Below are positions 5,407 to 19,830 of a DNA stretch of 64,000 nt, one piece after another; position 1 is the stretch's first letter; every line of letters begins with the position of its first letter. The notes beneath the pieces were generated by a model. The model was not told the origin of the DNA. It searched no databases and worked only from the letters and a program-made list of their open reading frames with translations. The translations under genes and the position numbers were made by a program. The stretch spans positions 66,604-130,603 of the forward strand of contig CAZCYO010000002.1 in the NCBI GenBank assembly GCA_964503265.1. Direction: 5' to 3'. The DNA comes from an uncultured Gammaproteobacteria bacterium (lineage in GTDB: Bacteria > Patescibacteriota > Microgenomatia > Levybacterales > UBA12049).

Positions 5407-5483
5407 AAATAGTTTATGGCAAATAGCGTATAGCTTATAGATAGATATACTCATGACTATTTGTTATAATAATGATTCAAAAT

Positions 5484-5566
5484 GCGGACGTGGTGAAATG
5501 GTATACACGCTACCTTGAGGTGGTAGTGCTCGCAAGGGTGTGGAGGTTCAACTCCTCTCGTCCGCA
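5484..5566 (+). tRNA. tRNA-Leu (anticodon GAG)
   Basis: Anticodon stem CUACC/GGUAG loop UUGAGGU, long variable arm, T-loop GGTTCAACTCC; preceded by TGtTATAAT extended -10. Confidence 0.85.
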
Positions 5567-5585
5567 CAATAAGTAGTCATAATAT

Positions 5586-5659
5586 GGACGATTAGCTCAG
5601 CTGGCTAGAGCGGCTCGTTTACACCGAGTAGGTCGGGGGTTCGAATCCCTCATCGTCCA
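5586..5659 (+). tRNA. tRNA-Val (anticodon UAC)
   Basis: GGACGAT acceptor, anticodon loop UUUACAC, T-loop GGGGGTTCGAATCCC. Confidence 0.85.
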
Positions 5660-5665
5660 CTAAAT

Positions 5666-5738
5666 GCCGAGATAGCCAAGGTGGTCAAGGCACCTGTCTG
5701 AAGAACAGGCCATGTCAGTTCGACTCTGACTCTCGGCA
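5666..5738 (+). tRNA. tRNA-Phe (anticodon GAA)
   Basis: Anticodon stem CCUGU/ACAGG loop CUGAAGA, T-loop GTCAGTTCGACTCTGAC. Confidence 0.85.
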
Positions 5739-5852
5739 CATCGTCGAACCAATTCGAACCCTTTCCAGTGCCTTCGGTCTGACTTTCGGCACACTTCACC
5801 TCATTTTTACCTAAAATTTACTTGACTTTACCCCTAAATTTTGACACCATGA

Positions 5853-6443
5853 ATGATACTAATGAGAAGATTCTTTCTGCTTACTACGTTCTTTTCGATT
5901 ATTCCAGTCGTTTTTCTTTTCTCAATCGTTTTCTTACTCTTTTTATCCTATAAAACCTCTGAGCGTGACGATACGAATAACTTCCTCACTTCTCAGCGAA
6001 GCGTTAATTACGCTGCGCTTCCGACCAACGAAAATTCATTTAGTACGTCTATCGTACAAGAAGATGGTCGAATCGAGTTGATAAAAAAATTTCTTGATCG
6101 GTATCATTCACCACTTTACCCATATGCAGCCTCAATAGTAAGAGATGCTGATACATATGGTCTGGACTACCGTCTTATTCCAGCGATAGCCATGCAGGAA
6201 TCAAATTTATGTAAAAAAATGCCTATAGATTCAAATAACTGTTGGGGATTTGGTATTTATGGAGGAAAAATCCTGTATTTTGATACATTTGAGAAGGGAA
6301 TTACGACAGTAACGAAAGCATTAGCTACTAAATATAAAGCTCGAGGTCTTGAAACACCTGATGAAATCATGAAAATGTATACTCCTGGTAGTAATGGGAG
6401 CTGGGCAAATGGTGTGAATTACTTCCTCGACGAGATCCAATAA
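5853..6443 (+). CDS. Secreted/membrane-anchored putative peptidoglycan hydrolase (GH73-glucosaminidase- or SLT-like), paralog 1
   Basis: N-terminal TM; conserved AIAMQESNLCK...NNCWGFGIYGG...TPGSNGSWANGVNYF block shared with ORF 6701-7261. Confidence 0.4.
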   Translation: MILMRRFFLLTTFFSIIPVVFLFSIVFLLFLSYKTSERDDTNNFLTSQRSVNYAALPTNENSFSTSIVQEDGRIELIKKFLDRYHSPLYPYAASIVRDADTYGLDYRLIPAIAMQESNLCKKMPIDSNNCWGFGIYGGKILYFDTFEKGITTVTKALATKYKARGLETPDEIMKMYTPGSNGSWANGVNYFLDEIQ

Positions 6444-6528
6444 CATATTTTCTTACATTTCTCCCAAATGCAACTCATTTTAGGCACGAAATCATTATTC
6501 CTTCCCGCTGTTTAATACCCCATAATAC

Positions 6529-9036: not shown

Positions 9037-9303
9037 ATGAGTGCTGAAAATCCACTCCCACCAGGACGAGCTCGTCGAGAACAACGAAAAGCAGCGAGAG
9101 AAGCTATCCGAGAACAAATACGTGACCCCCATCAAATTGATAAGATCGCCCATGAAGTTAGTGGCTCAGAGTACACTCCACCTCCACGTCAGGATAACTC
9201 AGTACAAGCTATCCTAGAACGTGCAGCACAAAGAGAAAAAGAAGAGAAAGAAGAGAATGTAAAATTAATTGATTTATTCGTTGATTCAAGGTTTTCAGAA
9301 TAG
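9037..9303 (+). CDS. Hypothetical charged protein
   Basis: 88 aa, Arg/Glu-rich; 2 nt after previous stop. Confidence 0.35.
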   Translation: MSAENPLPPGRARREQRKAAREAIREQIRDPHQIDKIAHEVSGSEYTPPPRQDNSVQAILERAAQREKEEKEENVKLIDLFVDSRFSE

Positions 9304-9499
9304 TTGACAACGCCAAGCTAAAAATTTATAATTCTCTCAATGTTAAGAAATATCGTGCTCCTACCAGTCGTGATTAATAACCTCCTAATTGGGGGCTTTC
9401 ATACTGGGGAGAATTCGATATAAGGTAAATAAAATACAAAAGACCGATAAAGACCACCTCCCCCAAAGGGAGGTTTTTTTATGGCTAGAAAAGGAATAT
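9304..9499 (+). promoter_or_regulatory. Attenuator module A: promoter TTGACA-17-TATAAT, leaderless leader ORF, hairpin 1 (9381-9395), hairpin 2 CCUCCC-CCAAA-GGGAGG-U7 (9457-9480) carrying SD
   Basis: -35 9304-9309, -10 9327-9332, leader ATG 9340 (7 nt after -10); GGGAGG 3' arm is 8 nt before ATG 9481. Confidence 0.45.
9340..9423 (+). CDS. Leader peptide A, MLRNIVLLPVVINNLLIGGFHTGENSI (Ile/Val/Leu-rich)
   Basis: Leaderless ATG 7 nt after -10; branched-chain codons precede hairpin-1 5' arm. Confidence 0.35.
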   Translation: MLRNIVLLPVVINNLLIGGFHTGENSI

Positions 9500-10267
9500 A
9501 TGTTAGACAAATATCAACAAACAGGGTATGACGCAGAAGCATTTAGATCACCTAAACCAGGTATCTTTACCGCACGTCAAGAAATAACACCAATATTACG
9601 CCCTAATTTTAAAGATCGTCAGCAAGCTAAACCACTTGGAAGACAAAGAGATAATGAAAATGAACAGATGATTGAACAAACATTTCGTTCGGAAGGAGGG
9701 GTAAGAGTCATGGTTCCTATTAAAATTCTTTCAGGAACTCAAAATGGCGAAGCGTATTCTCAAAGTAGACGAAGATATGTAGAAAATCAAATGCGAACTA
9801 ACGGTGTGCAGTTTTTACAGGAAAATCCAATACAAGCATGTTTTATTCCATCTGATGGAGATCAGAACGGAAATCAATTTGGAAGATTAGCAATCTTAGA
9901 AGGACATCATAGGGCCAGATATGCACCAAAATACGGTATTTCTAAAGTTCCAACTGCAATATTTACACTCGAACAAACAGCAAGAGTATTAAACAAAATT
10001 GGTGAGACGTTTAATGGTGATCCGTTTACACCAGAGACAGCAAAAGACTGGCTTGATTTTGGAATTATTAAAGCTGAATATGACTTTACGACATATCCTG
10101 ATAACCTCGCTGCACAAAGACGTCTTACAGGGGTAGCCTCTATAAATGAACTTGTCGATAGCTATAAACTCACCCCCATAGAGCAACCTCATCACTTTCA
10201 CCCAGCAGCTAATTACACTGCTATTGGCACGCATGCATATTATGACTATGCAGCAGGAGATAAATAG
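9500..10267 (+). CDS. ParB/Srx-like nuclease-domain protein (GHHR motif); start re-placed after the terminator
   Basis: LAILEGHHRARYAPKYG matches ParB N-terminal/sulfiredoxin DGHHR motif; TTG-extended track ORF 9389 reads through the hairpin and is rejected; ATG 9500 has GAAAAGGAA RBS. Confidence 0.5.
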   Translation: MLDKYQQTGYDAEAFRSPKPGIFTARQEITPILRPNFKDRQQAKPLGRQRDNENEQMIEQTFRSEGGVRVMVPIKILSGTQNGEAYSQSRRRYVENQMRTNGVQFLQENPIQACFIPSDGDQNGNQFGRLAILEGHHRARYAPKYGISKVPTAIFTLEQTARVLNKIGETFNGDPFTPETAKDWLDFGIIKAEYDFTTYPDNLAAQRRLTGVASINELVDSYKLTPIEQPHHFHPAANYTAIGTHAYYDYAAGDK

Positions 10268-10273
10268 CTATTA

Positions 10274-10449
10274 TTGACAAATAAATTGAAGAATTCTATA
10301 CTCAGATTATGTTCATAACAAGCGCTAACAACTCAATTATTATTATTAACTCCCTCCGGGAGGTTCTTTTCGTGTAATAAGTAAACTTACACGAAAATGA
10401 ATAACCTCCCAAATTGGGAGGTTTTTTTATGGGAAAAATAATTACTTAA
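10274..10449 (+). promoter_or_regulatory. Attenuator module B: TTGACA-17-TATACT, leader ORF, hairpin 1 (10350-10363), hairpin 2 (10405-10428) with SD, mini-ORF MGKIIT
   Basis: -35 10274-10279, -10 10297-10302, leader ATG 10309; hairpin 2 CCUCCCA-AAU-UGGGAGG + U7 then ATG 10429. Confidence 0.5.
10309..10377 (+). CDS. Leader peptide B, MFITSANNSIIIINSLREVLFV (four consecutive AUU Ile codons at 10336-10347)
   Basis: Ile run ends 2 nt before hairpin-1 5' arm CUCCC. Confidence 0.4.
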   Translation: MFITSANNSIIIINSLREVLFV

Positions 10450-10643
10450 ATAAGAGGGGGTCGTAATGCTGATTTAAATCAGCATGAAGATCTCGAGGCT
10501 TAAATAAGCCGAAGATCCTGGAATCATAAAGATTCTAGGGCATACGAACGAATGAAATGAGGAAAGGGGCCACGAGTCTTACGACATCGCGGCATCATAT
10601 ACGATTTATAGGTTACTAACCTAGGAATAAGAGGTGAATATAT

Positions 10644-11033
10644 ATGACAAGAGAAGAAAATTTACAGTACAGAGCAGCACATGGGTATATCGGTGATAAT
10701 GAAATCGGTGTAAATGTTACGCCTACTACAAATAGATCACCATTCAGAGAAACAGGTAGATTACTCAGACTTGCAGAAGCAGCGGGCCGAGGACTAAATG
10801 GTTGGGAAGCGCAATACGAACAAACACGCGTATCAGATCCTATGCCAGAAATAAACGTACCAGAGGCAGACAATCATGTAGCTGAGGCACTTACAACTGT
10901 ATTTGGAGGAGAGCCTACTATGTATAAAGCTGATGCAGCTACCCTTGCAGTAAAAGACCAAGCATATCAAGCAACAGAACTTCCTCGAATTCGAGCAGCA
11001 CTAGCTGATCTTAGTAATGGAAATAGAGAATAA
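10644..11033 (+). CDS. Hypothetical protein
   Basis: 129 aa, strong RBS AAGAGGTGA; GC higher than flanks. Confidence 0.45.
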   Translation: MTREENLQYRAAHGYIGDNEIGVNVTPTTNRSPFRETGRLLRLAEAAGRGLNGWEAQYEQTRVSDPMPEINVPEADNHVAEALTTVFGGEPTMYKADAATLAVKDQAYQATELPRIRAALADLSNGNRE

Positions 11034-11124
11034 ATAGGATTGATTCATTGCCAGGCGGAGACTCTTTCTACGCCTGGCAATAGGACTTGTCACATATCCA
11101 TACTCATGCTAGACTGCCAGGTTA

Positions 11125-11853
11125 ATGGTAACTGTTGAGCAACGGACACATACTGAGAGAACATATGCACAGGCTCCTATGGCTGTTGCGGATGCAATGA
11201 TGGTCGGAACGACTGAATTAGTAACGAGTTATGCAGCTAGGCATCCAGTACAAACACCAGATGGAAGACCTCCTTCTCTCACTGACATAGCACAGACATT
11301 TCCTAAGAATACGTTTATGTACAACATGGAGGTTGTCATGAAAAATGCGACAGAAAAAATGTGCCAAACAGGTTCTGAGGTTGCAGTACGATTTCTTCTC
11401 GATAACCATTCCTCGCTTTTCGATAGGATTGGCCTCATACAGGCAGAAGGGAAACTTAATAATGGAAGTTGGAGACTGCATGAGCTATTTTTAGTTCGTG
11501 ATACGCGGAAGATATGGTACGCGGGAAGTCCGGCAAATTACGAACCAGAAGTAGCTGATAGGAAGTTAGCCTCTAGAAAGAACCAATCTGGTACTCTCGA
11601 ATTATTTCAACATCCCGATCTAGATATGCTTCTGAGTCACATTAAACAATCTGTAGGCGGACAATGGCCTGATCCATCATTTATTGAAGAAACCATTAAC
11701 ACAGGACCATTTCCAGGTAATCGGGAATGGTCATCGAATTATGCTATTCCTTTTAAACGATTAAAACGTGTTTACTCGTCTGATCAAGAAACCTATGACA
11801 AAGAAGAAAAAATCCTTCTTCAACCATATCGACGAGGAGGAAGAGTACTCTAA
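11125..11853 (+). CDS. Hypothetical protein
   Basis: 242 aa; no recognisable motif. Confidence 0.45.
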   Translation: MVTVEQRTHTERTYAQAPMAVADAMMVGTTELVTSYAARHPVQTPDGRPPSLTDIAQTFPKNTFMYNMEVVMKNATEKMCQTGSEVAVRFLLDNHSSLFDRIGLIQAEGKLNNGSWRLHELFLVRDTRKIWYAGSPANYEPEVADRKLASRKNQSGTLELFQHPDLDMLLSHIKQSVGGQWPDPSFIEETINTGPFPGNREWSSNYAIPFKRLKRVYSSDQETYDKEEKILLQPYRRGGRVL

Positions 11854-11893
11854 TTGTGAGAAATGAATAAATTTGTTAGAATAGGCACTACAC

Positions 11894-11970
11894 GGAGCTA
11901 TAGCTCAGTTGGCTAGAGCGTTTCATTGACATTGAAAAGGTCACTGGTTCGAGTCCAGTTAGCTCCACCA
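11894..11970 (+). tRNA. tRNA-Val (anticodon GAC), CCA encoded
   Basis: GGAGCTA acceptor, anticodon stem UUUCA/UGAAA loop UUGACAU, T-loop GGTTCGAGTCC, ...TAGCTCCACCA. Confidence 0.85.
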
Positions 11971-12042
11971 GGCACAATTCTGCGCCTGGCTTCGCCGGAT
12001 TTAGTCTTGTATATCCTCATTAAACAACCGTATACTAATCAT

Positions 12043-12651
12043 ATGATTACAGTAGCATCACCATCTTCATCTTTTACCCGTGAACAGGCAAATGAAATTC
12101 TCCATAAGTATTTAAAAAATATAAATCTTTTGAAACATTCATTTGCGGCTGAGGCGGCGATGAAGGCAATTTATGAGAAGTTCTATCTTAACGATATTAA
12201 TTACTCACTCGCCGAGAAAGAAAAGTGGGGGATAACTGGGCTTCTTCATGATGCAGATTATGAGTTATCTAAAAATAATCCTGAAGTTCATGGGTTACTG
12301 CTGTTTGAAAAAGAAGTAGGTGTCGTACCTGAGGACATTGCCCACGCAATTAAAGCACATAATTGGGAATACACGAAAATCATGCCAGAGTCACTCATGG
12401 ATTGGGCGATCGCATGTTCCGATCAACTAACGGGTTTAATCGTCGCTGCAACGCTAATTCATCCGGACAAGAAAATAAAGAATATTACCGCAGATTTCGT
12501 CCAGAAGCGTATGAATGAAAAAACATTTGCAAAAGGTGCTAAAAGAGAATCAATTCTACTATGTGAAGAAAAACTAGGTATCCCACTTCCAGAATTTATC
12601 GAAATAGTTTTACGTGCTATGCAAGGAATAAATACAGAGTTGGGGTTATAA
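12043..12651 (+). CDS. HD-domain phosphohydrolase
   Basis: H...HD motif (LLHDADYE); track ORF start (TTG 11926) lies inside the tRNA so ATG 12043 preferred; TTGTAT-18-TATACT upstream. Confidence 0.55.
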   Translation: MITVASPSSSFTREQANEILHKYLKNINLLKHSFAAEAAMKAIYEKFYLNDINYSLAEKEKWGITGLLHDADYELSKNNPEVHGLLLFEKEVGVVPEDIAHAIKAHNWEYTKIMPESLMDWAIACSDQLTGLIVAATLIHPDKKIKNITADFVQKRMNEKTFAKGAKRESILLCEEKLGIPLPEFIEIVLRAMQGINTELGL

Positions 12652-12693
12652 TTCTCTTGACGTCACAGTTATTACATTTGTTATACTGCTATT

Positions 12694-13026
12694 ATGAACC
12701 ATCAGACTCCACAATTAACAAAGTCAGATCTTCAGGAAACATTGAAGGACTACCCTACGAAACAGGATCTCCATAATGCGTTGAAAGATTACCCGACCAA
12801 ACAAGACCTTCATAACGAAATAGCAATTACTCATGAAGTTATGGAGATAAAATTAAAAGAACAAAGTAATAGTATTTTTGAGAAATTAGACTATCTTATT
12901 AAACAATTTGAGGAAATGAGAGAAGATAGAGAATTAAAAACATATCATGATGCAAATACGGCAAAAACACTTCAAAATCATGATAAAAGAATAAAAAAAC
13001 TTGAACAAACAATCCAGAAAGCATAA
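12694..13026 (+). CDS. Coiled-coil protein with tandem 14-aa repeat LKDYPTKQDLHNxL
   Basis: Two consecutive near-identical 42-nt units at 12745-12830 with synonymous changes. Confidence 0.45.
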   Translation: MNHQTPQLTKSDLQETLKDYPTKQDLHNALKDYPTKQDLHNEIAITHEVMEIKLKEQSNSIFEKLDYLIKQFEEMREDRELKTYHDANTAKTLQNHDKRIKKLEQTIQKA

Positions 13027-13028
13027 TA

Positions 13029-13244
13029 ATGCAAAAATACGAACAGGCAGTTGAAACAAATCGTAAGAAGATTTTCATCAATAACGTTATTGGTGGATTT
13101 GGATGGGCACTAGGAAGTACTATTGGATTAGCGATCTTTGCGACACTTCTAACATTTTTACTAAGTAAAATTGATTTGATTCCACTACTAGGAACCTATC
13201 TCGCTAAGCTTAATGCATTTATCGCTACACACCCGCACCAATAA
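13029..13244 (+). CDS. Small membrane protein (2 TM)
   Basis: 71 aa, hydrophobic, 2 nt after previous stop. Confidence 0.4.
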   Translation: MQKYEQAVETNRKKIFINNVIGGFGWALGSTIGLAIFATLLTFLLSKIDLIPLLGTYLAKLNAFIATHPHQ

Positions 13245-13248
13245 TTCT

Positions 13249-13381
13249 TGACGATTATAAATAACCATGATACAGTAAAAAAAATGAGTAACTTTTCTAA
13301 GATTATTACAACAACTACAACTCCCTAGCGGAGGTTGTTTTGTTATAGAGACAGACACCTCCCACATGGGAGGTTTTTTTT
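13249..13381 (+). promoter_or_regulatory. Attenuator module C (Thr leader) upstream of thrS operon: TTGACG-16-TACAGT, leader ORF, hairpin 1 (13321-13334), hairpin 2 (13358-13381)
   Basis: -35 13249-13254, -10 13271-13276, leader ATG 13284; hairpin 2 CCUCCCA-CAU-GGGAGG + U8 then ATG 13382. Confidence 0.55.
13284..13328 (+). CDS. Leader peptide C, MSNFSKIITTTTTP (Ile-Ile-Thr x5)
   Basis: Thr codons ACA ACA ACU ACA ACU at 13308-13322 abut hairpin-1 5' arm; stop UAG lies in hairpin-1 loop. Confidence 0.45.
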   Translation: MSNFSKIITTTTTP

Positions 13382-13654
13382 ATGATTGAATCACAAATAC
13401 AAACCCTCGAACAAGCAAGTAATGAGCCTAAAAATAGAGAAGGATTTGATCCAACCATACGAGGTCCTATTGCGACACTTTACTTACCACTAGAGAAAAA
13501 AGTAATAGCACATGCAATTCAATTTGAAAAATGGCAAAAAGAAACTATTGACTCAGGGAAGCCTCTCAATGGGATTACGAGAGAAAGCGAAGTAACAACT
13601 CAGCCAACCCGACAAGAAGAAATTATTCTCTTTGAAACTAGTGAAAGTAAATAA
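13382..13654 (+). CDS. Hypothetical 90-aa protein (possible divergent TGS-like N-terminal piece of ThrRS)
   Basis: SD in hairpin 2; C-terminal GKPLNGITRESEVTTQPTRQEEIILFET weakly resembles ThrRS TGS domain (..KLNGKEIDL.TPI.EDGTVEII.). Confidence 0.4.
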   Translation: MIESQIQTLEQASNEPKNREGFDPTIRGPIATLYLPLEKKVIAHAIQFEKWQKETIDSGKPLNGITRESEVTTQPTRQEEIILFETSESK

Positions 13655-13707
13655 ATCTTTAAAAGCATATCTGTATCTGCTATAGTCGAGATCAGAGGAG
13701 ATAAATT

Positions 13708-15462
13708 ATGGAAAACGACAAAAGACAACATATGAGACATTCTGCAGCACATTTACTCGCTGCTGCGATGATGAAACTGTATCCTAAAACCAAACTTACT
13801 ATTGGTCCTGCGATTGAAAACGGGTTTTATTATGATTTCGATTTGGAAAATCCTATTAACGAGGAAGACTTTTCTAACATTGAAGCAACTATGAGAGAAC
13901 TACTTCCTTCATGGAAAGCATTTACTCACCGTGAAGTATCAGAGCATGATGCGAAAGAATTTTATAAGCATAATGAGTATAAGCTAGAACTGATCGATGA
14001 AATTATCGCTAAAGGCGAGAAGATTACATTTTATACGTCTGGTGACTTTGAAGATCTTTGTCGTGGCGGACATAGTGAGAATCCATCTAAAGATATTGGC
14101 GCTGTAAAACTTCTTTCGATTGCAGGAGCGTATTGGCGAGGGAGTGAGAAAAATAAAATGCTTACTCGTATCTATGGAACGGCATTTGCCACTCAAGAAG
14201 AACTTGACGAGTATTTAGGGATGTTAGAGGAAGCAAAAAAGCGTGATCATAAGAAGTTAGGTCGAGAACTTGATCTCTTCTTCTTTACAGAAACCTCTCC
14301 TGGCATGGCATACTGGCTTCCAAAAGGACTTACCGTGTATAACACACTTTATGGGTATGTACGAGAAATGTATAAAAAGTATGGATATCAAGAAGTCGCT
14401 ACCCCACAACTAAATAAAAAAGAACTATACGAAATATCTGGTCATTGGCAGCACTACCGTGGGGACATGTTTATTTCTCCGATGAGCTATATAACCGAAG
14501 ACTCGTCTGAACTTCTAGAGGGAAGTGAGGTGTTTGGTATTAAGCCGATGAATTGCCCAAATGCCATGACAATTTTCGATTTGAGAACGAGATCATACAC
14601 AGAATTACCACTTCGACTTGCCGAGACATCCATTCTCCATCGATTTGAACTATCCGGGACACTTAATGGTCTTTTCAGAATTCGACAATTCCGACAAGAT
14701 GACGCTCACGTATTTATGACAGTTACTCAAATAAAACAAGAGTTTGAAGCTCTCATGGACATGATTGCTGATATGTATGCTCCATTTGATTTATCATACA
14801 AGCTTCGTTTTGGAACCCGGCCAGAAAAATTTATGGGAGAAAGTAGCGATTGGGATGTGGCAGAACGAGAACTCAAACAAGTATTAGTTGATTCAGGCCA
14901 AGAATTCTTTGAGGCAGCAGGTGAAGGAGCTTTTTATGGTCCTAAAATTGATATCTTAATGCGTGATTCAATCGGGAGAGAATGGCAGACAGGAACGATT
15001 CAACTAGACTTCCAACAGCCAAAGAATTTTACATTGAAATATACCGATAATGACGGTTCTGAGAAAACTCCGGTTGTCCTTCATCGTGCTATTTATGGTT
15101 CGTTCGAAAGATTTCTTGGAATTCTCGTTGAACACTATGGAGGAAAATTCCCATTATGGCTTGCTCCTATACAATTAACGCTTCTTCCAATTGCTGACAG
15201 ACATGTCGAGTTCGCTGAAAAAATAGCCTCAGAATATAAAGAATTAGGAATTCGAGTCGAAGTTGACAGTACGTCAGAGCGCTTACAAGCTAAGATTAGG
15301 AACGCTACTTTACAAAAAGTGCCGTTTATGGGTATAATAGGGGACGCGGAAATTGCTGAGAACGTAATTTCGGTTCGTGTAAGAAGCGGCGAAGATCTCG
15401 GTAAAATCGAAACTTCCAAGTTTCTGACCCAACTTAAAGAAAACATTGATAAAAAAGTATAA
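13708..15462 (+). CDS. thrS: Threonyl-tRNA synthetase, lacking N-terminal TGS domain
   Basis: Starts at editing-domain HxxxH motif (HMRHSAAHLLAAAMM); class II aaRS core and anticodon-binding domain alignable along full length. Confidence 0.9.
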   Translation: MENDKRQHMRHSAAHLLAAAMMKLYPKTKLTIGPAIENGFYYDFDLENPINEEDFSNIEATMRELLPSWKAFTHREVSEHDAKEFYKHNEYKLELIDEIIAKGEKITFYTSGDFEDLCRGGHSENPSKDIGAVKLLSIAGAYWRGSEKNKMLTRIYGTAFATQEELDEYLGMLEEAKKRDHKKLGRELDLFFFTETSPGMAYWLPKGLTVYNTLYGYVREMYKKYGYQEVATPQLNKKELYEISGHWQHYRGDMFISPMSYITEDSSELLEGSEVFGIKPMNCPNAMTIFDLRTRSYTELPLRLAETSILHRFELSGTLNGLFRIRQFRQDDAHVFMTVTQIKQEFEALMDMIADMYAPFDLSYKLRFGTRPEKFMGESSDWDVAERELKQVLVDSGQEFFEAAGEGAFYGPKIDILMRDSIGREWQTGTIQLDFQQPKNFTLKYTDNDGSEKTPVVLHRAIYGSFERFLGILVEHYGGKFPLWLAPIQLTLLPIADRHVEFAEKIASEYKELGIRVEVDSTSERLQAKIRNATLQKVPFMGIIGDAEIAENVISVRVRSGEDLGKIETSKFLTQLKENIDKKV

Positions 15463-16009
15463 AACAAAACAAGATCAAAAGTTCTATAGAATAAACGAGC
15501 GTATCTTTGCCCAGACGCTTCGAGTGATTGATCTAGAAGGAAAACAAATCGGGGTTATCTCAAAAAGCGAAGCCATAAGCCTCGCCCGAGAGCAAGGGTT
15601 AGACGTAGTTGAAATTGCACCACTCGCTACACCGCCTGTTGCTAAGATTATCGATTATAATAAATTCCTTTACCAAGAAGAAAAGAAAAAAAGAGAAGAA
15701 AAGAGAAACGCAAAGGTATCCGAGACGAAGGAAGTTCGACTAGGTCCGTTTATGTCTGACAATGATTTAGCAACCATGGTCAAGCGAACACGAGATTTTC
15801 TAGAAGACGGAGACAAGGTTCGACTGGTCGTTAAATATAAAGGAAGACAAATAACCCATCCAGAATTTGGACAGGTTATAATGCAAAAAGTAATACTAGC
15901 AGTTGACGATATATCGAAAGTAGATCGTGAGCCTAAATTTGAAGGTAAACAACTGATTACATTACTCTCACCTGAAAGGAAGAAAAAGAATGCCGAAGAA
16001 AAAAATTAA
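15446..16009 (+). CDS. infC: Translation initiation factor IF-3 (non-ATG start: TTG 15446 or AUA 15449)
   Basis: YRINERI...LDVVEIAPLATPPVAKIIDYNKFLY typical IF3; overlaps thrS end. Confidence 0.85.
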   Translation: MIKKYKTKQDQKFYRINERIFAQTLRVIDLEGKQIGVISKSEAISLAREQGLDVVEIAPLATPPVAKIIDYNKFLYQEEKKKREEKRNAKVSETKEVRLGPFMSDNDLATMVKRTRDFLEDGDKVRLVVKYKGRQITHPEFGQVIMQKVILAVDDISKVDREPKFEGKQLITLLSPERKKKNAEEKN

Positions 16010-16187
16010 AAAATCAGTATCTAGACGCTTTAAAGTTACAAAAACTGGAAAAGTGATGTTTAGCCATCAATATGCTGGTCATCATAAAATCCATAAATCA
16101 AAAAAACGTCTTCGCAGACTGAAAGAACCAGCAGAAATGACTGGAAGATTCGCAAGAAACATTAAAAAATTATTAGGAGCACTATAA
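15990..16187 (+). CDS. rpmI: 50S ribosomal protein L35
   Basis: MPKKKIKKSVSRRFKVTKTGKV... 65 aa basic. Confidence 0.85.
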   Translation: MPKKKIKKSVSRRFKVTKTGKVMFSHQYAGHHKIHKSKKRLRRLKEPAEMTGRFARNIKKLLGAL

Positions 16188-16188
16188 T

Positions 16189-16539
16189 ATGGCAAGAGTA
16201 AAACGAGGTATTGTTTCAAGACGCAAACACAATAAACTACTTGGATTAACCAAGGGTTTTCGTGGTACAAAAAGCAGTCTTATTAAAACAGCACATGAAG
16301 CTGCACTTCACGCTGGAGCATATGCATTCCATGGACGAAAATTACGAAAACGAGATATTCGATCTCTATGGATTATTAGAATTGGTGAAGCAGTTAAAAA
16401 AGAAAGTCTTTCATACAGTAAATTTATTGATATGCTTAAAAAAGCAAATGTTGAACTTGATAGAAAGATTCTAAGTGATCTTATCGTAAACCATCCTGAA
16501 ACATTTAAAAAAGTTCTTGACAGTGTTAAAACTGCTTGA
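16189..16539 (+). CDS. rplT: 50S ribosomal protein L20
   Basis: MARVKRGIVSRRKHNKLL... 116 aa. Confidence 0.9.
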   Translation: MARVKRGIVSRRKHNKLLGLTKGFRGTKSSLIKTAHEAALHAGAYAFHGRKLRKRDIRSLWIIRIGEAVKKESLSYSKFIDMLKKANVELDRKILSDLIVNHPETFKKVLDSVKTA

Positions 16540-16708
16540 TAAGCTAATACCCATGATCACAACACGACAATCATATTTCTATTTTTACTTTACTTCCTTA
16601 ACCGGGAGGTCTTTTGCTGTCTAAGCAAGAAAAGTAAAACATAGACACAAAAGAGTACACCTCCCACACGGGAGGTTTTTTTATGGGAAAAATAAGAAAG
16701 GAATCACT
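16517..16708 (+). promoter_or_regulatory. Attenuator module D (Phe/Tyr leader, pheM-like): TTGACA-17-TAAGCT, leader ORF, hairpin 1 (16593-16609), hairpin 2 (16661-16682), mini-ORF MGKIRKESLCQE overlapping next start
   Basis: -35 16517-16522 overlaps rplT stop; leader ATG 16553; hairpin 2 CCUCCCA-CAC-GGGAGG + U7 then ATG 16683. Confidence 0.55.
16553..16624 (+). CDS. Leader peptide D, MITTRQSYFYFYFTSLTGRSFAV (Phe/Tyr run; compare E. coli PheM [15 protein letters not shown])
   Basis: Six consecutive Tyr/Phe codons 16574-16591 end 1 nt before hairpin-1 5' arm CUUCC. Confidence 0.45.
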   Translation: MITTRQSYFYFYFTSLTGRSFAV

Positions 16709-17662
16709 ATGCCAGGAATAGAAATGCGACATCATTCAGTTGAAATTATTGCAGGACCATGCTCAATGGATGAGAAAAACAGAGGAGAAATAGATACCAT
16801 TGCAGGGATTAGTTTACCTGACGGCCGTCCTGCCATTTATGGAACACGTGTGGTCGGATATAAATCACGAACAGAGTTAGATCCTTCAGGGAAAGGAATG
16901 GGGGTCGATTATCATGCAGTCGAACATGCGTTAGATACGAATGAACTAGGAGATGATCCACAAAGTGTAATGTGGGCACGGGAAATCGTAAAAGATACTG
17001 GCCTTCAAATTGCAACTGAAATTATGGTTCCTCATATTCAATTAGGATATTTTCAACGAGACCCGCTATTTCAAGGCAAACTATTACCATGGAATCCATC
17101 AGTTGATCAATTAGGACCTCATATGAGGCAAATGGGGAAATTTGCAATTAAAAATGAGTGGAGACTAGGTATAAAAAATGGAAAAGATTTAGGAGTAACC
17201 CCAAGTGTTGCAAATGATAAGAATGGCCGAGCACCTACCCCTCTTGAAAAAACATGGGGAGGACTTGCCACATGGGCACATGGATTAGATGAAAGTAATT
17301 TGGTTTTCATACAACGTGGAGTAAATATTCCTGAGAGAGGAGATCATAGAAACCTTCCAATACATGAAGCGACACGGCGAATTAAAGAAAGGTTTCCACA
17401 TGCTATTACATTATTTGATCCAAGTCATAGCTTTGGACCGAAGATGCGAGATCAAATTGTAGAAGGAAGTATAGATGCATTACGAATGACAGCAGGGAGT
17501 AGACCACTATATGATGGACTACTTATTGAAGCAGGGAGCTCAGATACTGATACAGACCAACATATTACCATTCAAGAACTTACCGAACTTGTTGATACCG
17601 TTCAACGGATTAGAGATGTTCGCACACGAGAACCACACAACTTCTATCAAAGAAGGGCGTAG
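16709..17662 (+). CDS. 3-deoxy-7-phosphoheptulonate (DAHP) synthase, class I-alpha (AroG-like)
   Basis: IIAGPCSMDE (GPCS), KSRT (KPRT analogue), KTWGGLATWAHG...FIQRGVN, LFDPSHS, GLLIEAG line up with E. coli AroG blocks. Confidence 0.6.
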   Translation: MPGIEMRHHSVEIIAGPCSMDEKNRGEIDTIAGISLPDGRPAIYGTRVVGYKSRTELDPSGKGMGVDYHAVEHALDTNELGDDPQSVMWAREIVKDTGLQIATEIMVPHIQLGYFQRDPLFQGKLLPWNPSVDQLGPHMRQMGKFAIKNEWRLGIKNGKDLGVTPSVANDKNGRAPTPLEKTWGGLATWAHGLDESNLVFIQRGVNIPERGDHRNLPIHEATRRIKERFPHAITLFDPSHSFGPKMRDQIVEGSIDALRMTAGSRPLYDGLLIEAGSSDTDTDQHITIQELTELVDTVQRIRDVRTREPHNFYQRRA

Positions 17663-17685
17663 TAGTACATAAAACATATTCAATT

Positions 17686-18645
17686 GTGTCGGTCACACAG
17701 TTGCAGTATAATGAGCTAGTTATGAAAAATGAAATGATTTTTATCGATGGCAAATTTGTTTTAGAAACTGATGCGAGAATATCGCTTAAAACACATGCAC
17801 TCCAGTATGGAACTGGCTGCTTTGAAGGAATTAGAGCGTACTATTCAGAAGAAGACGATGCGCTCTATGCATTTAGAGTAGAAGATCATTTTAGGAGATT
17901 TCTTAAATCATGTCATATACTGTTTATGAAACTTCCATATTCTGTTGAGGAATTAACGACATTTACTATCGAACTCTTAAAAAAGAACTATGACAAAACA
18001 GATATTTATATTAGGCCATTCGCTTTTAAATCTGAACCGACAGTCAGTAGTTTTAATCTTCAAACTCTTAAAACAAGTGTAGCGATCTATACAATCGCGA
18101 TGGGAAGATATCTCGATACAAAAGGTCTGAAAGCAAATATCTCTACCTGGAAAAGAGTCAATGACAATGCAATTCCACCTCGTGCAAAGATTACTGGCTC
18201 ATATATAAATACAGCACTTGCTAAAACAGAATCTCAGCTGAACGGATATGACGAAGCATTATTTTTAGATGAATCTGGCCATGTCGTCGAAGGAAGTGCA
18301 GAGAATATTTTCATTATTAAAGGAAATACTTTGATTACTCCATCTATCTCTGAAGATATTCTTCAGGGAATCACGAGGGAAACTATTATGATGTTAGCTC
18401 GTGATCATACTAATCTCACACTTGTCGAAAGAAGTATCGGGCGAACAGAACTATATCAAGCTGATGAAGTATTTTTAGTAGGAACGGGAGCCGAAGTAGC
18501 ACCAGTTATCGAAATTGATAAACGTGAAATTGGTACAGGTAAAACAGGACCACATACAGAAAAGATAAAAGATCTTTATTTTAAACTCGTTCATGGACAG
18601 TTACCAGAATATAAACAGTTATTTACCAAAATAACGTCTGACTAA
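17686..18645 (+). CDS. ilvE: Class IV PLP aminotransferase (branched-chain/aromatic amino-acid aminotransferase)
   Basis: EVFLVGTGAEVAPV and GSAENIFIIKGN motifs; probable start ATG 17722 (TTGTGT-17-TATAAT 9 nt upstream). Confidence 0.7.
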   Translation: MSVTQLQYNELVMKNEMIFIDGKFVLETDARISLKTHALQYGTGCFEGIRAYYSEEDDALYAFRVEDHFRRFLKSCHILFMKLPYSVEELTTFTIELLKKNYDKTDIYIRPFAFKSEPTVSSFNLQTLKTSVAIYTIAMGRYLDTKGLKANISTWKRVNDNAIPPRAKITGSYINTALAKTESQLNGYDEALFLDESGHVVEGSAENIFIIKGNTLITPSISEDILQGITRETIMMLARDHTNLTLVERSIGRTELYQADEVFLVGTGAEVAPVIEIDKREIGTGKTGPHTEKIKDLYFKLVHGQLPEYKQLFTKITSD

Positions 18646-18647
18646 AC

Positions 18648-18721
18648 GTCATTCTGGAGCGCAGCGATAGAATCTCACATATTTTGAGATCCTATCAAAG
18701 TCGTTGCTTTTCCAGGATGAC
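18648..18721. repeat. REP-like imperfect palindromic element, copy 1 (GTCATTCTGGAG...CCAGGATGAC)
   Basis: 74-nt near-palindrome; reverse complement of copy at 21846-21917 aligns over almost entire length. Confidence 0.5.
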
Positions 18722-18734
18722 AGAGTAATAAAAT

Positions 18735-19787
18735 ATGGAAGATAAACTTAATTCTATTAAAAACGCAGCGCTTCCTCTTGTTTTGGATGCGAAATCTGCC
18801 AAAGAACTTGAAGATATTAAACTACAATTTTTAGGCAGAAGTGGACTCTTAACCGTAGCTCTTAAAGAACTCTCAAGTGTTCCAGCAGAAAAAAGGCCAG
18901 AAATCGGACGAGTTGCCAATGAAGTAAAACAGACGATAGAAAATGCGATAGAGTCGGTTGCAGAATCATTTATTAAACAAAAAAGACAACATAAAACGAA
19001 ACTTGACGTAACCGAGCCTGGAATAAGACCTTCTCTTGGGAATCTTCATCTGGTAACACAGGCGATAGAAGAAATTACTGCTATTTTTAATTCAATTGGA
19101 TTTACACGAGTTCGATATCCAGAAGTAGAATGGGATTGGTATGCTTTTGAGGCTCTTAATTTTCCTGAAAACCATCCAGCACGTGATGACTGGGAAACGT
19201 TTTTTATTAAACAGTCACCTGATGCTAAAAAAGGACCTGTCATTTTAACTCCGCATACCTCAAGTGGACAAATTCGTGAAATGGAAAAAGGAATACTTCC
19301 AATTAAAATGCTTAACATCGCTAAATGTTATCGAAGACAATCAGATGTTTCTCACTCATCGATGTTTCATCAATTTGAAACATTATGTGTCGGTGAAAAT
19401 GTCTCTATTGCAGATCTTAAAGGAGCACTTGATTACTTTGCCAAATCGTATTTCGGAGAAAAAAGAAAAACGAGAATCAGGCCATATCATTTCCAATTCA
19501 CCGAACCGTCTTTTGAGGTAGATATCTCATGTGGAATTTGTAATGGTACTGCTAAACTTGAGAATGGTGAGCCATGCAAACTATGTAAATCAGGATGGCT
19601 GGAGTTAGGTGGAGCAGGAATGGTTCATCCAAATGTATTAAAATATTGTGGTATCGATTCAACCAAATATACAGGATTTGCATCAGGATTTGGTGTTGAG
19701 CGAGTACTGATGATGAAAGATGGAATAGAACTCGATGATTTACGGCTCATTTACAGCCCTAAACTTGAGTTTTTACAACAGTTCTAA
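18735..19787 (+). CDS. pheS: Phenylalanyl-tRNA synthetase alpha subunit
   Basis: Class II motifs in a pheS-length ORF directly followed by pheT. Confidence 0.9.
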   Translation: MEDKLNSIKNAALPLVLDAKSAKELEDIKLQFLGRSGLLTVALKELSSVPAEKRPEIGRVANEVKQTIENAIESVAESFIKQKRQHKTKLDVTEPGIRPSLGNLHLVTQAIEEITAIFNSIGFTRVRYPEVEWDWYAFEALNFPENHPARDDWETFFIKQSPDAKKGPVILTPHTSSGQIREMEKGILPIKMLNIAKCYRRQSDVSHSSMFHQFETLCVGENVSIADLKGALDYFAKSYFGEKRKTRIRPYHFQFTEPSFEVDISCGICNGTAKLENGEPCKLCKSGWLELGGAGMVHPNVLKYCGIDSTKYTGFASGFGVERVLMMKDGIELDDLRLIYSPKLEFLQQF

Positions 19788-19830
19788 TTTTAGCAAAAAG
19801 CATAGAGCAAAGGGCTAAGAGAAATACCCT

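What the first reader, a model, noticed from the sequence alone, without database searches (positions are those of the whole stretch)
9304..16711. Four copies of a minimal leader-peptide attenuator module: consensus promoter, leaderless uORF, hairpin 1, hairpin 2 carrying the Shine-Dalgarno, next ATG
The same architecture occurs at 9304-9481, 10274-10431, 13249-13384 and 16517-16685. (i) Each has a TTGACA/TTGACG -35, a 16-17 nt spacer and a TAnnnT -10, and each -10 ends exactly 7 nt before an ATG, which implies a leaderless transcript. (ii) Each encodes a 14-27 codon peptide with a run of one amino-acid class: ...IVLLPVVINNLLI, ...SIIIIN, ...KIITTTTTP, ...SYFYFYFT. (iii) The run is placed so that its last codons abut or overlap the 5' arm of hairpin 1, CUCCC/CUUCC..GGGAGG, which is followed by GUUnUUUU. 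(iv) 30-50 nt later comes hairpin 2, (A)CCUCCC(A)-3..5 nt-GGGAGG, followed by U7-8 and an ATG. Regions 1/2 (hairpin 1) and 3/4 (hairpin 2) are all CCUCC/GGAGG words. The 3' arm of hairpin 1 (GGGAGG) is therefore perfectly complementary to the 5' arm of hairpin 2 (CCUCCC), which gives the alternative 2:3 antiterminator expected for trp/thr/pheA-type attenuation. Hairpin 2 also sequesters the SD (GGGAGG, 7-8 nt before the ATG) of the next ORF, so one element can control both termination and translation initiation. The four copies differ outside the hairpins, so they are not recent MITE copies; that suggests selection on the structure. No database search was run here, so novelty is not established. 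The four-fold minimal form, and its use in front of thrS and a pheST block, looks unusual for a compact genome.
Basis: partly seen in the sequence, partly recalled or inferred. Interest (0 to 1): 0.9.

Follow-up and report, generated by a model that had tools for sequence, protein, structure and literature searches.

The report
Leader-peptide amino-acid attenuators in CPR bacterium
Four short regulatory leaders in this candidate-phyla-radiation (Levyibacteria-like) genome look like classical ribosome-sensing attenuators: each encodes a tiny peptide rich in one amino-acid class and probably switches off the downstream genes (thrS, aromatic-pathway genes plus pheST, and unknown genes) when that amino acid is plentiful. 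The same design recurs across related uncultured bacteria.

Summary
CCTCCC-N3-7-GGGAGG occurs exactly four times in 64 kb (0 expected by chance). All four are on the + strand. Each lies behind a near-consensus promoter, an ATG 6-7 nt after the -10, and a 14-27 codon ORF.

The attenuator reading holds up well against related sequences. In thrS-anchored loci of related Levyibacteria/Microgenomates, the same hairpin plus U7 occurs 70 times, 67 of them on the gene strand, at the same syntenic places. Leader peptides match the gene context:
- Thr runs lie before thrS.
- Phe/Tyr/Trp runs lie before shikimate-pathway genes, pheA, DAHP synthase and pheST.
- Ile/Leu/Val runs lie in a third slot.
- Metagenomic copies add Cys (before a PLP enzyme), Ser (before a serA-like gene) and Leu types.

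A ribosome-position scan shows the terminator favoured by 8-16 kcal/mol when the leader is free or the ribosome is at the stop codon. The gap collapses only when the A site sits on the last run codons.

- The ATG after hairpin 2 starts a real gene only in module 3.
- Nucleotide covariation is not significant, because the arms are conserved.
- No transcript data exist.

It works like classical attenuation. It matches no Rfam family (Phe_leader scores 38.6 against a threshold of 55). I found no description of it for CPR bacteria.

The parts
9304..9332 (+). M1 promoter: TTGACA, 17-nt spacer, TATAAT
   Evidence: 12/12 consensus. The -10 ends 7 nt before the ATG.
9340..9423 (+). M1 leader ORF MLRNIVLLPVVINNLLIGGFHTGENSI (Ile/Leu/Val type)
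   Evidence: Structure-sensitive A-site codons are VLLPV and NLLIG.
9350..9421 (+). M1 hairpin-1 domain. The core is CCUCC/GGGGG at 9381-9395. A second G-run, GGGGAG (about 9406-9411), pairs with region 3 when the ribosome stalls.
9456..9480 (+). M1 hairpin 2 (ACCUCCC/GGGAGGU) plus U7: predicted intrinsic terminator. Its 3' arm is SD-like.
9481..9531 (+). M1 mini-ORF (16 codons) starting right after the U-tract. It overlaps, out of frame, the real start of the 255-aa gene at 9500.
10274..10302 (+). M2 promoter: TTGACA, 17-nt spacer, TATACT
   Evidence: The -10 ends 6 nt before the ATG.
10309..10377 (+). M2 leader ORF MFITSANNSIIIINSLREVLFV (Ile type)
   Evidence: Sensitive codons are the last two Ile codons.
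10350..10402 (+). M2 hairpin 1 core (CUCCC/GGGAG, 10350-10362) and middle hairpin (10363-10402). In the stalled state GGGAGGUU pairs with AACCUCCC around the middle hairpin.
10403..10428 (+). M2 hairpin 2 (AACCUCCCA/UGGGAGGUU) plus U-tract; followed by the mini-ORF MGKIIT (10429-10449)
13248..13276 (+). M3 promoter: TTGACG, 17-nt spacer, TACAGT (with TG before the -10)
13284..13328 (+). M3 leader ORF MSNFSKIITTTTTP (Thr type). The stop codon lies in the loop of hairpin 1.
13310..13344 (+). M3 hairpin 1. The Thr codons plus CUCC pair with GGAGGUUGUUUUGUU.
13357..13381 (+). M3 hairpin 2 (ACCUCCC/GGGAGGU) plus U8. Here the following ATG (13382) starts a 90-aa ORF, so the 3' arm is a true SD.
13382..16539 (+). 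Genes behind M3: 90-aa ORF, thrS (13708-15462), infC, rpmI, rplT
   Evidence: A possible extra promoter lies at 13658-13686.
16517..16545 (+). M4 promoter: TTGACA, 17-nt spacer, TAAGCT. It lies inside the 3' end of rplT.
16553..16624 (+). M4 leader ORF MITTRQSYFYFYFTSLTGRSFAV (Phe/Tyr type)
   Evidence: Sensitive codons are YF.
16578..16645 (+). M4 hairpin-1 domain. The codon run pairs with AAAGUAAAACAUAG. This encloses the core ACUUCC/GGGAGGU (16592-16610) and the middle hairpin (16612-16630).
16659..16682 (+). M4 hairpin 2 (ACCUCCC/GGGAGGU) plus U7; followed by a 12-codon mini-ORF (16683-16721)
16709..21813 (+). Genes behind M4: divergent DAHP-synthase-like 317-aa protein, ilvE-type aminotransferase, pheS, pheT

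Best explanation
Each module is a ribosome-mediated (leader-peptide) transcription attenuator that senses the charging of one class of tRNA.

Proposed sequence of events:
1. Transcription starts 6-7 nt after the -10, at or next to the leader AUG, so the leader is translated as a leaderless mRNA. This step is inferred.
2. The run codons and the following CUCC word form region 1.
3. A GGAGG word at or just after the leader stop codon forms region 2.
4. ACCUCCC is region 3. GGGAGGU followed by U7 is region 4.

Amino acid plentiful: the ribosome runs to the stop codon and covers region 2, or it is released and 1:2 re-forms. In either case 3:4 folds as an intrinsic terminator.

Cognate charged tRNA scarce: the ribosome stalls on the last run codons and masks region 1. 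Region 2 pairs with region 3 before region 4 is made. A middle hairpin often brings 2 and 3 together. RNA polymerase then reads into thrS-infC-rpmI-rplT (M3), into the DAHP-synthase-like/ilvE/pheST genes (M4), or into unannotated genes (M1, M2).

Secondary outputs (inferred):
- The freed region 4 is a strong SD with an RUG start 7 nt downstream. This gives a translational layer that is direct in M3 and acts through a mini-ORF elsewhere.
- For transcripts arriving from the upstream gene, the leader AUG is internal and has no SD. The module then defaults to termination and serves as that gene's terminator.
- Hairpin 1 with its U-rich tail may act as the pause that synchronises the ribosome and the polymerase.

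Shown versus inferred: the sequence anatomy, its conservation, the match between codon and downstream gene, and the energetics are shown. Transcription start, translation, stalling and termination are inferred.
For: Non-random occurrence and specificity:
- Exactly 4 hairpin-2 matches in the window against 0 expected.
- Other terminators in the window use unrelated stems.

Conservation:
- 70 hairpin-2 plus U-tract sites in thrS-anchored loci, 67 on the gene strand. They occur only in Levyibacteria/Microgenomates-like relatives.
- The U-tract is exactly 7 nt in 57 of 71 sites, counting the window.
- 56 sites (window included) have a TTGnnn / 16-18 nt / TAnnnT promoter with a start codon 6-11 nt downstream.

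Match between leader codons and downstream genes:
- Synteny is tig, DUF5660 gene, [Ile/Leu/Val leader] ... [Thr leader], thrS operon, [aromatic leader], pheST.
- Aromatic leaders precede EPSP synthase, dehydroquinase, shikimate dehydrogenase, shikimate kinase, chorismate synthase, prephenate dehydratase and DAHP synthase.
- In metagenomic copies, Cys leaders precede a PLP enzyme, Ser leaders precede a serA-like/HAD gene, a Thr leader precedes a class II aminoacyl-tRNA synthetase, and an aromatic leader precedes DAHP and DHQ synthases.

Ribosome-position scan:
- The terminator is favoured by 5.5-16.7 kcal/mol with a free leader or a ribosome at the stop codon, typically 8-16; the few metagenomic free-leader values lower than this are listed in the Against line.
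- The gap falls to about -5 to +7 (mostly -4 to +4) only at the last run codons.
- Classifying modules by genomic position alone, the sensitive codons are 74% Thr before thrS, 92% Phe/Tyr between rplT and pheS, and 56% Ile/Leu/Val in the third slot.
- The metagenomic set gives the same result. Two sites that lack the architecture (L101, L129) show no drop.

Structure:
- In all four window modules, the nascent RNA with a stalled ribosome folds 2:3 at -12.7 to -24.7 kcal/mol.
- Native 5' and 3' halves of the hairpin-1 domain interact at -13.0 kcal/mol, against -7.3 for partners taken from another class.
- The same leaderless geometry occurs at long ORFs in the window.
- The best Rfam match is Phe_leader, which shows the same layout.
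Against: - No transcript or translation data exist for this uncultured organism.
- Hairpin 2 and the 2:3 helix are almost invariant, so they carry no covariation. Within the Thr class, shuffles reach the observed covariation score 200 times in 500.
- Swapping region 3 between modules barely changes the 2:3 energy (-14.0 against -12.7 kcal/mol).
- At equilibrium the terminator stays 2.5-3.7 kcal/mol more stable even with the ribosome stalled, so antitermination must be kinetic.
- The genes behind M1 and M2, and behind most Ile/Leu/Val leaders, have no annotation. They are not conserved between genomes.
- thrS may have its own promoter at 13658-13686.
- Two relatives (L029, L035) have a module before thrS without a Thr run, ending ...MQMK(A/S)S.
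- The scan uses a fixed 12-nt footprint and treats all RNA 5' of the ribosome as unavailable.
- In the metagenomic set a few free-leader gaps are small: 1.1 kcal/mol in L150, 5.1 in L115 and 5.5 in L088.
Confidence: 0.85

Rival explanations
1. Purely translational attenuation, as in the mycobacterial polycysteine leaderless sORFs. Hairpin 2 is not a terminator. It only hides the GGGAGG Shine-Dalgarno of the RUG that follows, and the stalled ribosome frees it.
For: GGGAGG-U7-RTG is present in all four window modules and in 50 of 70 sites in relatives. In M3 and in 8 sites in all (window included), the RTG starts an ORF of at least 78 aa. The mechanism has been shown experimentally in mycobacteria (bioRxiv 10.1101/834739).
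Against: 32 of the 50 RTG ORFs are only 1-7 codons long. The real gene usually has its own SD (GAAAGGAGGUGA) further downstream. The spacer is an uninterrupted U7 in 57 of 71 sites. It remains U6-7 in 19 of the 21 sites that lack RTG. That pattern is what a terminator requires and an SD spacer does not. The stem plus U-tract meets the intrinsic-terminator criteria.
Confidence: 0.08
2. The hairpins are just the terminators of the upstream genes. The promoters and short ORFs between them are unrelated, or are independent small-protein or sRNA genes.
For: Each hairpin 2 lies 130-180 nt after the stop of the preceding gene. No other terminator lies in between. The units have their own promoter and terminator.
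Against: A consensus promoter sits between the upstream stop codon and the hairpin. Only the codon run and the hairpin words of the peptides are conserved. The run amino acid tracks the downstream genes, not the upstream ones. The four words are mutually complementary, and the stem is not used by other terminators in the window. This rival is compatible with the best explanation as a secondary role.
Confidence: 0.04
3. Dispersed repeat or miniature mobile element copies with no regulatory role.
For: There are four similar units within 7.5 kb. They share a stereotyped 25-nt hairpin plus U-tract.
Against: Copies are only 50-66% identical and share only functional words. There are no terminal repeats or target duplications. 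All copies are co-oriented with the genes. They hold syntenic positions in genomes whose thrS is only about 50-74% identical.
Confidence: 0.01

Closest known systems
E. coli pheST (pheM) and pheA (pheL) leader-peptide attenuators; Rfam RF01859 Phe_leader
   Same: A short ORF with a Phe-rich run. The run pairs with a downstream A-rich segment. The GCCUCCC...GGGAGGC terminator is followed by a U-tract. It controls pheST or Phe biosynthesis. M4 aligns end to end with the Rfam model.
   Different: The score is below the family threshold (38.6 bits against 55). The leader start appears leaderless rather than SD-led. The run mixes Phe, Tyr and Trp. The target operon combines a DAHP-synthase-like gene, ilvE and pheST. 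The host is a CPR bacterium. The resemblance may be convergent.
Classical thr, ilv, leu, trp and his operon attenuators of Proteobacteria
   Same: Four-region logic, regulatory codons inside region 1, a stop codon next to region 2, and an intrinsic terminator as 3:4.
   Different: Here the Thr attenuator controls the synthetase operon thrS-infC-rpmI-rplT. From general knowledge, thrS is controlled by translational autoregulation in E. coli and by a T-box in Bacillus. All four regions are built from SD and anti-SD words. One scaffold is reused for many amino acids. No Rfam Thr_leader hit was found.
Actinobacterial leader-peptide attenuators: mycobacterial polycysteine leaderless sORFs (10.1101/834739), C. 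glutamicum ilvBNC three-hairpin attenuator (PMC11857589), and predicted Streptomyces trpS/leuS attenuators (PMC1262725)
   Same: Leaderless sensory short ORFs. Several loci respond to the same amino acid (a 'ribulon'). Attenuators lie in front of aminoacyl-tRNA synthetase genes. The layout has three hairpins. In mycobacteria the SD is sequestered.
   Different: Different phylum and unrelated sequences. Here a canonical U7 terminator is always present, whereas the mycobacterial Cys elements act on translation without an obvious terminator.
T-box riboswitches
   Same: They serve the same physiological purpose: inducing aminoacyl-tRNA synthetase and amino-acid genes when the cognate tRNA is uncharged, through a choice between terminator and antiterminator.
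   Different: A T-box binds tRNA directly and needs no translation. No T-box was detected here. These leaders are far too short (about 100-140 nt) and are coding.

Membership tests
Ribosome-mediated (leader-peptide) transcription attenuator | Promoter-proximal short ORF with a run of codons for the regulating amino acid | tested here: met
   Four window leaders and 52 in relatives, plus about 30 metagenomic ones.
Ribosome-mediated (leader-peptide) transcription attenuator | Intrinsic terminator (GC-rich stem plus U-tract) between the leader ORF and the structural genes | tested here: met
   Stems of 7-9 bp plus U7-8. The U-tract is exactly 7 nt in 57 of 71 sites. This is prediction only.
Ribosome-mediated (leader-peptide) transcription attenuator | A mutually exclusive antiterminator (2:3) that forms only when the ribosome stalls on the regulatory codons | tested here: met
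   Constraint folding shows that 2:3 forms in the nascent RNA of all four modules. The energy gap collapses only at the run codons. This is computational. There is no covariation support.
Ribosome-mediated (leader-peptide) transcription attenuator | The amino acid of the run matches the function of the regulated genes | tested here: met
   Met for Thr/thrS, for aromatic/shikimate-pathway genes plus pheA plus pheST, for Cys/PLP enzyme and for Ser/serA-like gene. Inconclusive for the Ile/Leu/Val modules M1 and M2, whose targets are unannotated. ilvE follows such a leader only in L016.
Ribosome-mediated (leader-peptide) transcription attenuator | Premature termination relieved by starvation for the amino acid | not testable with these tools
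   Uncultured organism. No transcript data are available here.
Rfam RF01859 Phe_leader | Covariance-model score at or above the gathering threshold (55 bits) | tested here: not met
   M4 scores 38.6, M2 32.4 and M3 22.8 bits.
Rfam Thr_leader, Leu_leader, Trp_leader, His_leader | Any match with E-value up to 5 | tested here: not met
   No hit in 9200-16800.
T-box riboswitch | Match to the T-box model upstream of the synthetase genes | tested here: not met
   No hit at the gathering threshold or at E-value up to 5.
Leaderless sensory sORF attenuators (mycobacterial 'ribulon' type) | The transcript begins at the sORF start codon | tested here: inconclusive
   The -10 ends 6-7 nt before the ATG in all four modules and 6-9 nt before it in 48 of 56 modules. 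The same geometry is found at four long ORFs in the window. No 5'-end data exist.
Leaderless sensory sORF attenuators (mycobacterial 'ribulon' type) | The output is unmasking of the downstream gene's ribosome-binding site, without a terminator | tested here: not met
   A canonical terminator is always present. The hidden SD serves the main gene in only 8 of 70 sites.

The most novel reading that the evidence does not exclude
The CCUCC/GGAGG four-word module is a lineage-wide, plug-and-play regulatory chassis of Microgenomates-type CPR bacteria.

Under this reading:
- One scaffold is re-coded for at least seven amino-acid specificities: Thr, Phe/Tyr/Trp, Ile/Val, Leu, Cys, Ser and possibly Met.
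- It acts at two levels at once. It is a terminator, and it also masks an SD whose RUG mini-ORF loads ribosomes for the downstream gene.
- It doubles as the terminator of the upstream operon.
- It is the main amino-acid-sensing system of organisms that have very few transcription factors. It could therefore be used to assign amino-acid-related roles to the many unannotated genes it controls.
Probability: 0.35. Interest if true: 0.75.

Novelty: new variant of a known kind. Interest (0 to 1): 0.6.

Why it matters
- Almost nothing is known about gene regulation in candidate-phyla-radiation bacteria. They cannot be grown alone and have tiny genomes.
- These leaders indicate that at least the Levyibacteria/Microgenomates branch senses tRNA charging with the ribosome itself. 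It reuses one compact RNA scaffold for many amino acids.
- The regulated genes include synthetase genes (thrS, pheST) and an aromatic-amino-acid pathway that such organisms are often assumed to lack.
- The codon run is a built-in label of specificity. The modules therefore give testable functional hints for the unannotated genes behind the Ile/Leu/Val, Leu and other leaders. They also offer small, well-defined parts for synthetic amino-acid sensors.
- The mechanism itself is textbook attenuation. The advance is in distribution, modularity and the targets, not in principle.

Tried and rejected
- Exact-sequence look-up of the window's ThrS found no record.
- RNAalifold on a MAFFT alignment of Thr-class leaders recovered only hairpin 2, with no compensatory pairs.
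- Pair counting on a hand-drawn hairpin 1 plus hairpin 2 structure gave 85% of cells paired, against 41-64% for slid controls. Covariation was no better than shuffles.
- The 2:3 helix has no covariation. A region-swap test was not discriminating because the core words are shared. I therefore rely on class-level co-adaptation and on positional energetics instead.
- Pfam and NCBIfam gave nothing for the proteins behind M1 and M2, nor for most Ile/Leu/Val-leader targets. Those targets are not homologous between genomes.
- The 317-aa protein behind M4 has no PDB sequence relative and only weak DAHP-synthase hits.
- I considered that RTG after the U-tract might be the general gene start, and rejected it because most such ORFs are 1-7 codons.
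- I considered that the CCUCCC stem might be the genome's generic terminator, and rejected it.
- blastn of the structured 10430-10645 spacer against all loci found nothing.
- I did not build a covariance model. Regex plus synteny already recovered the family, and alignments fitted to a model would not add independent covariation.

Full report
**1. Observation**

The four modules are real. The hairpin-2 word pair CCTCCC-N3-7-GGGAGG occurs exactly four times in the 64-kb window, at 9457, 10405, 13358 and 16660. All four are on the + strand, and 100 dinucleotide shuffles gave 0.00 matches. Each is followed by T7-8 and ATG, and each scores as an intrinsic-terminator-like site.

Upstream of each lies a strong sigma-70-type promoter:
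- M1: TTGACA-17-TATAAT.
- M2: TTGACA-17-TATACT.
- M3: TTGACG-17-TACAGT.
- M4: TTGACA-17-TAAGCT.

An ATG follows 7, 6, 7 and 7 nt after the -10. It opens a short ORF:
- M1: MLRNIVLLPVVINNLLIGGFHTGENSI.
- M2: MFITSANNSIIIINSLREVLFV.
- M3: MSNFSKIITTTTTP.
- M4: MITTRQSYFYFYFTSLTGRSFAV.

Folding gives hairpin 1 and hairpin 2 in every module, with z-scores of -2.8 to -6.3. M2 and M4 have a middle hairpin. Hairpin 1 extends so that the run codons themselves are paired. The copies are 50-66% identical, and identity is concentrated in the functional words.

**2. Context**

The genes around the modules are as follows:
- M3 is followed by a 90-aa ORF and then thrS-infC-rpmI-rplT.
- M4 starts inside the end of rplT. 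It is followed by a 317-aa divergent DAHP-synthase-like protein, an ilvE-type aminotransferase, pheS and pheT.
- M1 precedes a 255-aa protein with no family match.
- M2 precedes about 200 nt of strongly structured RNA and then a 129-aa protein with no family match.

ThrS places the organism among Candidatus Levyibacteriota (Microgenomates, candidate phyla radiation). The best relative is 73% identical.

The leaderless geometry, with a -10 followed 6-7 nt later by ATG, also occurs at four long ORFs in the window. It is therefore a habit of this genome and not peculiar to the leaders. Other terminator-like hairpins in the window use unrelated stems. The CCUCCC/GGGAGG stem is thus specific to these modules.

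**3. Related sequences**

I examined 80 loci fetched around thrS homologues.
- CCTCC-N3-9-GGAGG plus a T-run occurs 70 times, 67 of them on the thrS strand. It occurs only in loci whose ThrS is at least about 46% identical to the query.
- The U-tract is exactly 7 nt in 57 of 71 sites, counting the window.
- Fifty-six sites (window included) have a TTGnnn / 16-18 nt / TAnnnT promoter (TTGACA in 37). A start codon lies 6-11 nt after the -10, followed by a 13-37 codon ORF. Several sites missed by the regex have the same layout on inspection.
- Gene order is conserved: tig, DUF5660 gene, [leader], variable genes, HD-domain gene, [leader], (HAD hydrolase or small ORF), thrS-infC-rpmI-rplT, [leader], variable genes, pheS-pheT.

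The peptides fall into classes by position:
- Before thrS: MQNKQLVITTTTTTL, MKIQIALTTTTTLS, MANQFISTTTTIS, and others.
- After rplT: MTLRANNYFWFYFTSQQGGRIVA, MIKGLNFGFYFTHPTGR, VNKNRVIFFFFSFTSLTGR, and others.
- After the DUF5660 gene: MHSRSLILSVVVLLLTEGGNAVVRK, MQAIKNLILVILKSLKGGKSDA, and others.

Only the run and the residues encoded by the hairpin arms (for example TS...GR) are conserved.

More distant CPR loci also carry Thr-run ORFs just before thrS. Examples are MASTTTTTSTMIQDFFIFL, MSLIELVHIITTTTTER and MFCHRCTTTTTTTIPAGV. The reverse-strand control gave such an ORF in 1 of the 80 loci (L069).

**4. Match between codons and regulated genes**

- Aromatic leaders precede EPSP synthase, type I dehydroquinase, shikimate dehydrogenase, shikimate kinase and chorismate synthase (L016). 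They also precede prephenate dehydratase (L005) and DAHP synthase (L003), and always pheST.
- Thr leaders precede thrS directly, or a HAD hydrolase and then thrS.
About 30 of these have the full layout, and they add new specificities.
- In that set, a Cys leader (MTIRKSIIVCCCTSRLKGRYF) lies before a PLP-dependent enzyme. Ser-type leaders lie before a D-2-hydroxyacid (serA-like) dehydrogenase, in one case fused to a HAD domain. A Thr leader lies before a class II synthetase. An aromatic leader lies before DAHP synthase and dehydroquinate synthase. A Met-containing leader lies before a SAM hydroxide adenosyltransferase.
- Ile/Leu/Val leaders are the weak point. Their targets mostly lack any family match and are not homologous between genomes. 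The exception is an ilvE-like gene in L016.

**5. Mechanism test**

For every module I moved a ribosome codon by codon along the leader. All RNA up to 12 nt past the A-site codon was masked. At each position I compared the best structure that contains hairpin 2 with the best structure that has region 4 unpaired.

- With no ribosome, or with the ribosome at the stop codon, the terminator state wins by 5.5-16.7 kcal/mol, typically 8-16.
- The gap falls to about -5 to +7 (mostly -4 to +4) only for a few A-site positions. These are the last codons of the run.
- Grouping modules by genomic position only, which avoids circularity, the sensitive codons are 74% Thr before thrS (13 modules; 13% Thr in the rest of the peptide). 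They are 92% Phe/Tyr between rplT and pheS (15 modules). They are 56% Ile/Leu/Val in the third slot (24 modules).
- The independent metagenomic set behaves the same way, with sensitive codons such as CC, SSS, LLL, II, TT and FF. Two hits that lack the architecture (L101, L129) show no drop. Exceptions are three metagenomic leaders with small free-leader gaps: 1.1 kcal/mol in L150, 5.1 in L115 and 5.5 in L088.
- For the four window modules, the nascent RNA ending before region 4 folds region 2 onto region 3 when the ribosome is stalled. The energies are -12.7, -24.7, -13.4 and -22.4 kcal/mol. Once region 4 is added, the terminator is 2.5-3.7 kcal/mol more stable. Read-through must therefore be a kinetic outcome, as in the classical systems.
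- The stop codon sits in or just after region 2 in all classes. This is what the model needs for termination when the amino acid is plentiful.

**6. Structure evidence and its limits**

- Hairpin 2 and the 2:3 core are nearly invariant, so they cannot show covariation.
- In the Thr class, 85% of cells pair in my hairpin 1 plus hairpin 2 drawing, against 41-64% when the partners are slid. The covariation score is no better than shuffles.
- The stronger evidence is at class level. The 3' strand of the extended hairpin 1 is complementary to whichever codon run the leader carries. Native halves interact at -13.0 kcal/mol. Partners from the same class give -9.4, and partners from other classes give -7.3.
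- Some subfamilies extend 2:3 beyond the shared core in a way that region 4 cannot match. An example is GAAGGCGGU pairing with ACCGCCUC. The swap test as a whole is not discriminating.

**7. The start codon after the U-tract**

RTG directly follows the T-run in 50 of 70 sites. However, 32 of these ORFs are only 1-7 codons long, and only 8 are at least 78 aa. The real gene usually follows within 8-26 nt, behind its own SD (GAAAGGAGGUGA).

The claim that hairpin 2 hides the SD of the next gene therefore holds for M3 and for a minority of relatives. Elsewhere the exposed SD-RUG pair may load ribosomes onto a mini-ORF next to the true start. This is unresolved.

The uninterrupted U7 is kept even where RTG is absent. 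That argues that termination is the primary output.

**8. Comparison with what is known**

- Rfam has no family for these elements. The only matches are sub-threshold hits to Phe_leader RF01859 (38.6, 32.4 and 22.8 bits against 55). Its consensus has the same layout and a similar GCCUCCC/GGGAGGC terminator. No T-box or Thr_leader match was found.
- The mechanism is classical attenuation. E. coli pheST and pheA, and the thr and ilv operons, are the textbook cases (my own knowledge).
- Leader-peptide attenuators in front of synthetase genes have been predicted in Streptomyces (PMC1262725).
- Leaderless sensory short ORFs forming a 'ribulon' have been shown in mycobacteria, where they act on translation (10.1101/834739).
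- A three-hairpin attenuator is described for C. glutamicum ilvBNC (PMC11857589).
- Full-text searches that combined attenuation or leader-peptide terms with CPR or Patescibacteria found nothing relevant.

**9. Verdict**

It is not a member of any curated RNA family. It works like a classical leader-peptide attenuator, so I class it as a new variant of a known kind. Its distinguishing features are:
- apparent leaderless translation of the leader;
- four regions built from SD and anti-SD words;
- a terminator that is also an SD-start-codon pair;
- one scaffold re-coded for many amino acids;
- control of thrS and pheST plus aromatic biosynthesis in CPR bacteria.

Interest is moderate to high for people working on CPR biology and RNA regulation, and lower for the mechanism itself.

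Noticed in passing
window 10429-10650: The spacer between M2 and the next ORF (10644) folds into several strong hairpins. The minimum free energy is -60.8 kcal/mol and the z-score is -5.66; none of 200 shuffles folded as well. It has no Rfam match and no similar sequence in any fetched locus. It could be an unknown structured RNA or a long regulatory 5' UTR.
   Followed up: partly
L029 about 2260, 3150, 4140, 6640, 10110; L006 about 10850; L011 about 5200; L020 about 6250; L055 about 10160: A small recurring motif, (A/U)CCUGAGC-N3..20-(G)CCGAAGG(A/G)U, lies between hairpin 2 and the next gene in several relatives. It looks like a short hairpin with a conserved GA-rich internal loop. Its function is unknown. 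A possible analogue in the window is gatctcgaggcttaaataagccgaagatc at about 10488-10516.
   Followed up: no
window 46138, 59370, 63013 (+) and 44165 (-): Consensus TTGACx / 17 nt / TAnnnT promoters lie 6-7 nt before the ATG of long ORFs (182, 248, 293 and 712 aa). Leaderless mRNAs therefore seem common in this genome.
   Followed up: partly
window 16709-17662: The 317-aa protein behind the aromatic leader has no Pfam hit and no PDB sequence relative. Its only matches are weak NCBIfam hits to DAHP synthase (E = 1.8e-6). Homologues in L017 and L041 (47% identical) sit behind the same type of leader. It may be a divergent DAHP synthase.
   Followed up: partly
L016 9970-14527; L005 11104-12309; L093 3221-5058: Relatives encode a run of shikimate-pathway genes: EPSP synthase, dehydroquinase, shikimate dehydrogenase, shikimate kinase, chorismate synthase, prephenate dehydratase, and DAHP and DHQ synthases. 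This is notable because CPR bacteria are usually described as lacking amino-acid biosynthesis.
   Followed up: partly
L029 6453-6616; L035 about 6387-6486: In two relatives, the module just upstream of thrS has no Thr run. The leader ends ...MQMK(A/S)S, and the structure-sensitive codons are Q and M. This may be a different specificity, or a module that regulates the small ORF that follows it.
   Followed up: no
window 9500-10267 and 10644-11853; L003 570-2026; L025 2647-3447; L150 2096-2803: Genes behind Ile/Leu/Val-type leaders are mostly unannotated and differ between genomes. One is a Peptidase_S51 and one has a weak nucleotidyltransferase hit. The leader may be a clue to an amino-acid-related role.
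   Followed up: partly
window 5321-5739 and 11894-11970: A cluster of tRNA genes (Leu-CAG, Leu-GAG, Val-TAC, Phe-GAA) lies at 5321-5739. A lone tRNA-Val(GAC) lies at 11894-11970. It sits behind a TTGTGA / 17 nt / TAGAAT promoter-like site, between the M2 and M3 regions.
   Followed up: no
L007 9831-9950; L030 10104-10200: Phe-only leaders (MISSTQKFSFFFTFA, MHKTAQSFFFFAFA) lie directly before pheS. They have a longer terminator, ACCUCCAC...GUGGAGGU, that encloses an extra small hairpin. This shows that the scaffold tolerates insertions.
   Followed up: no
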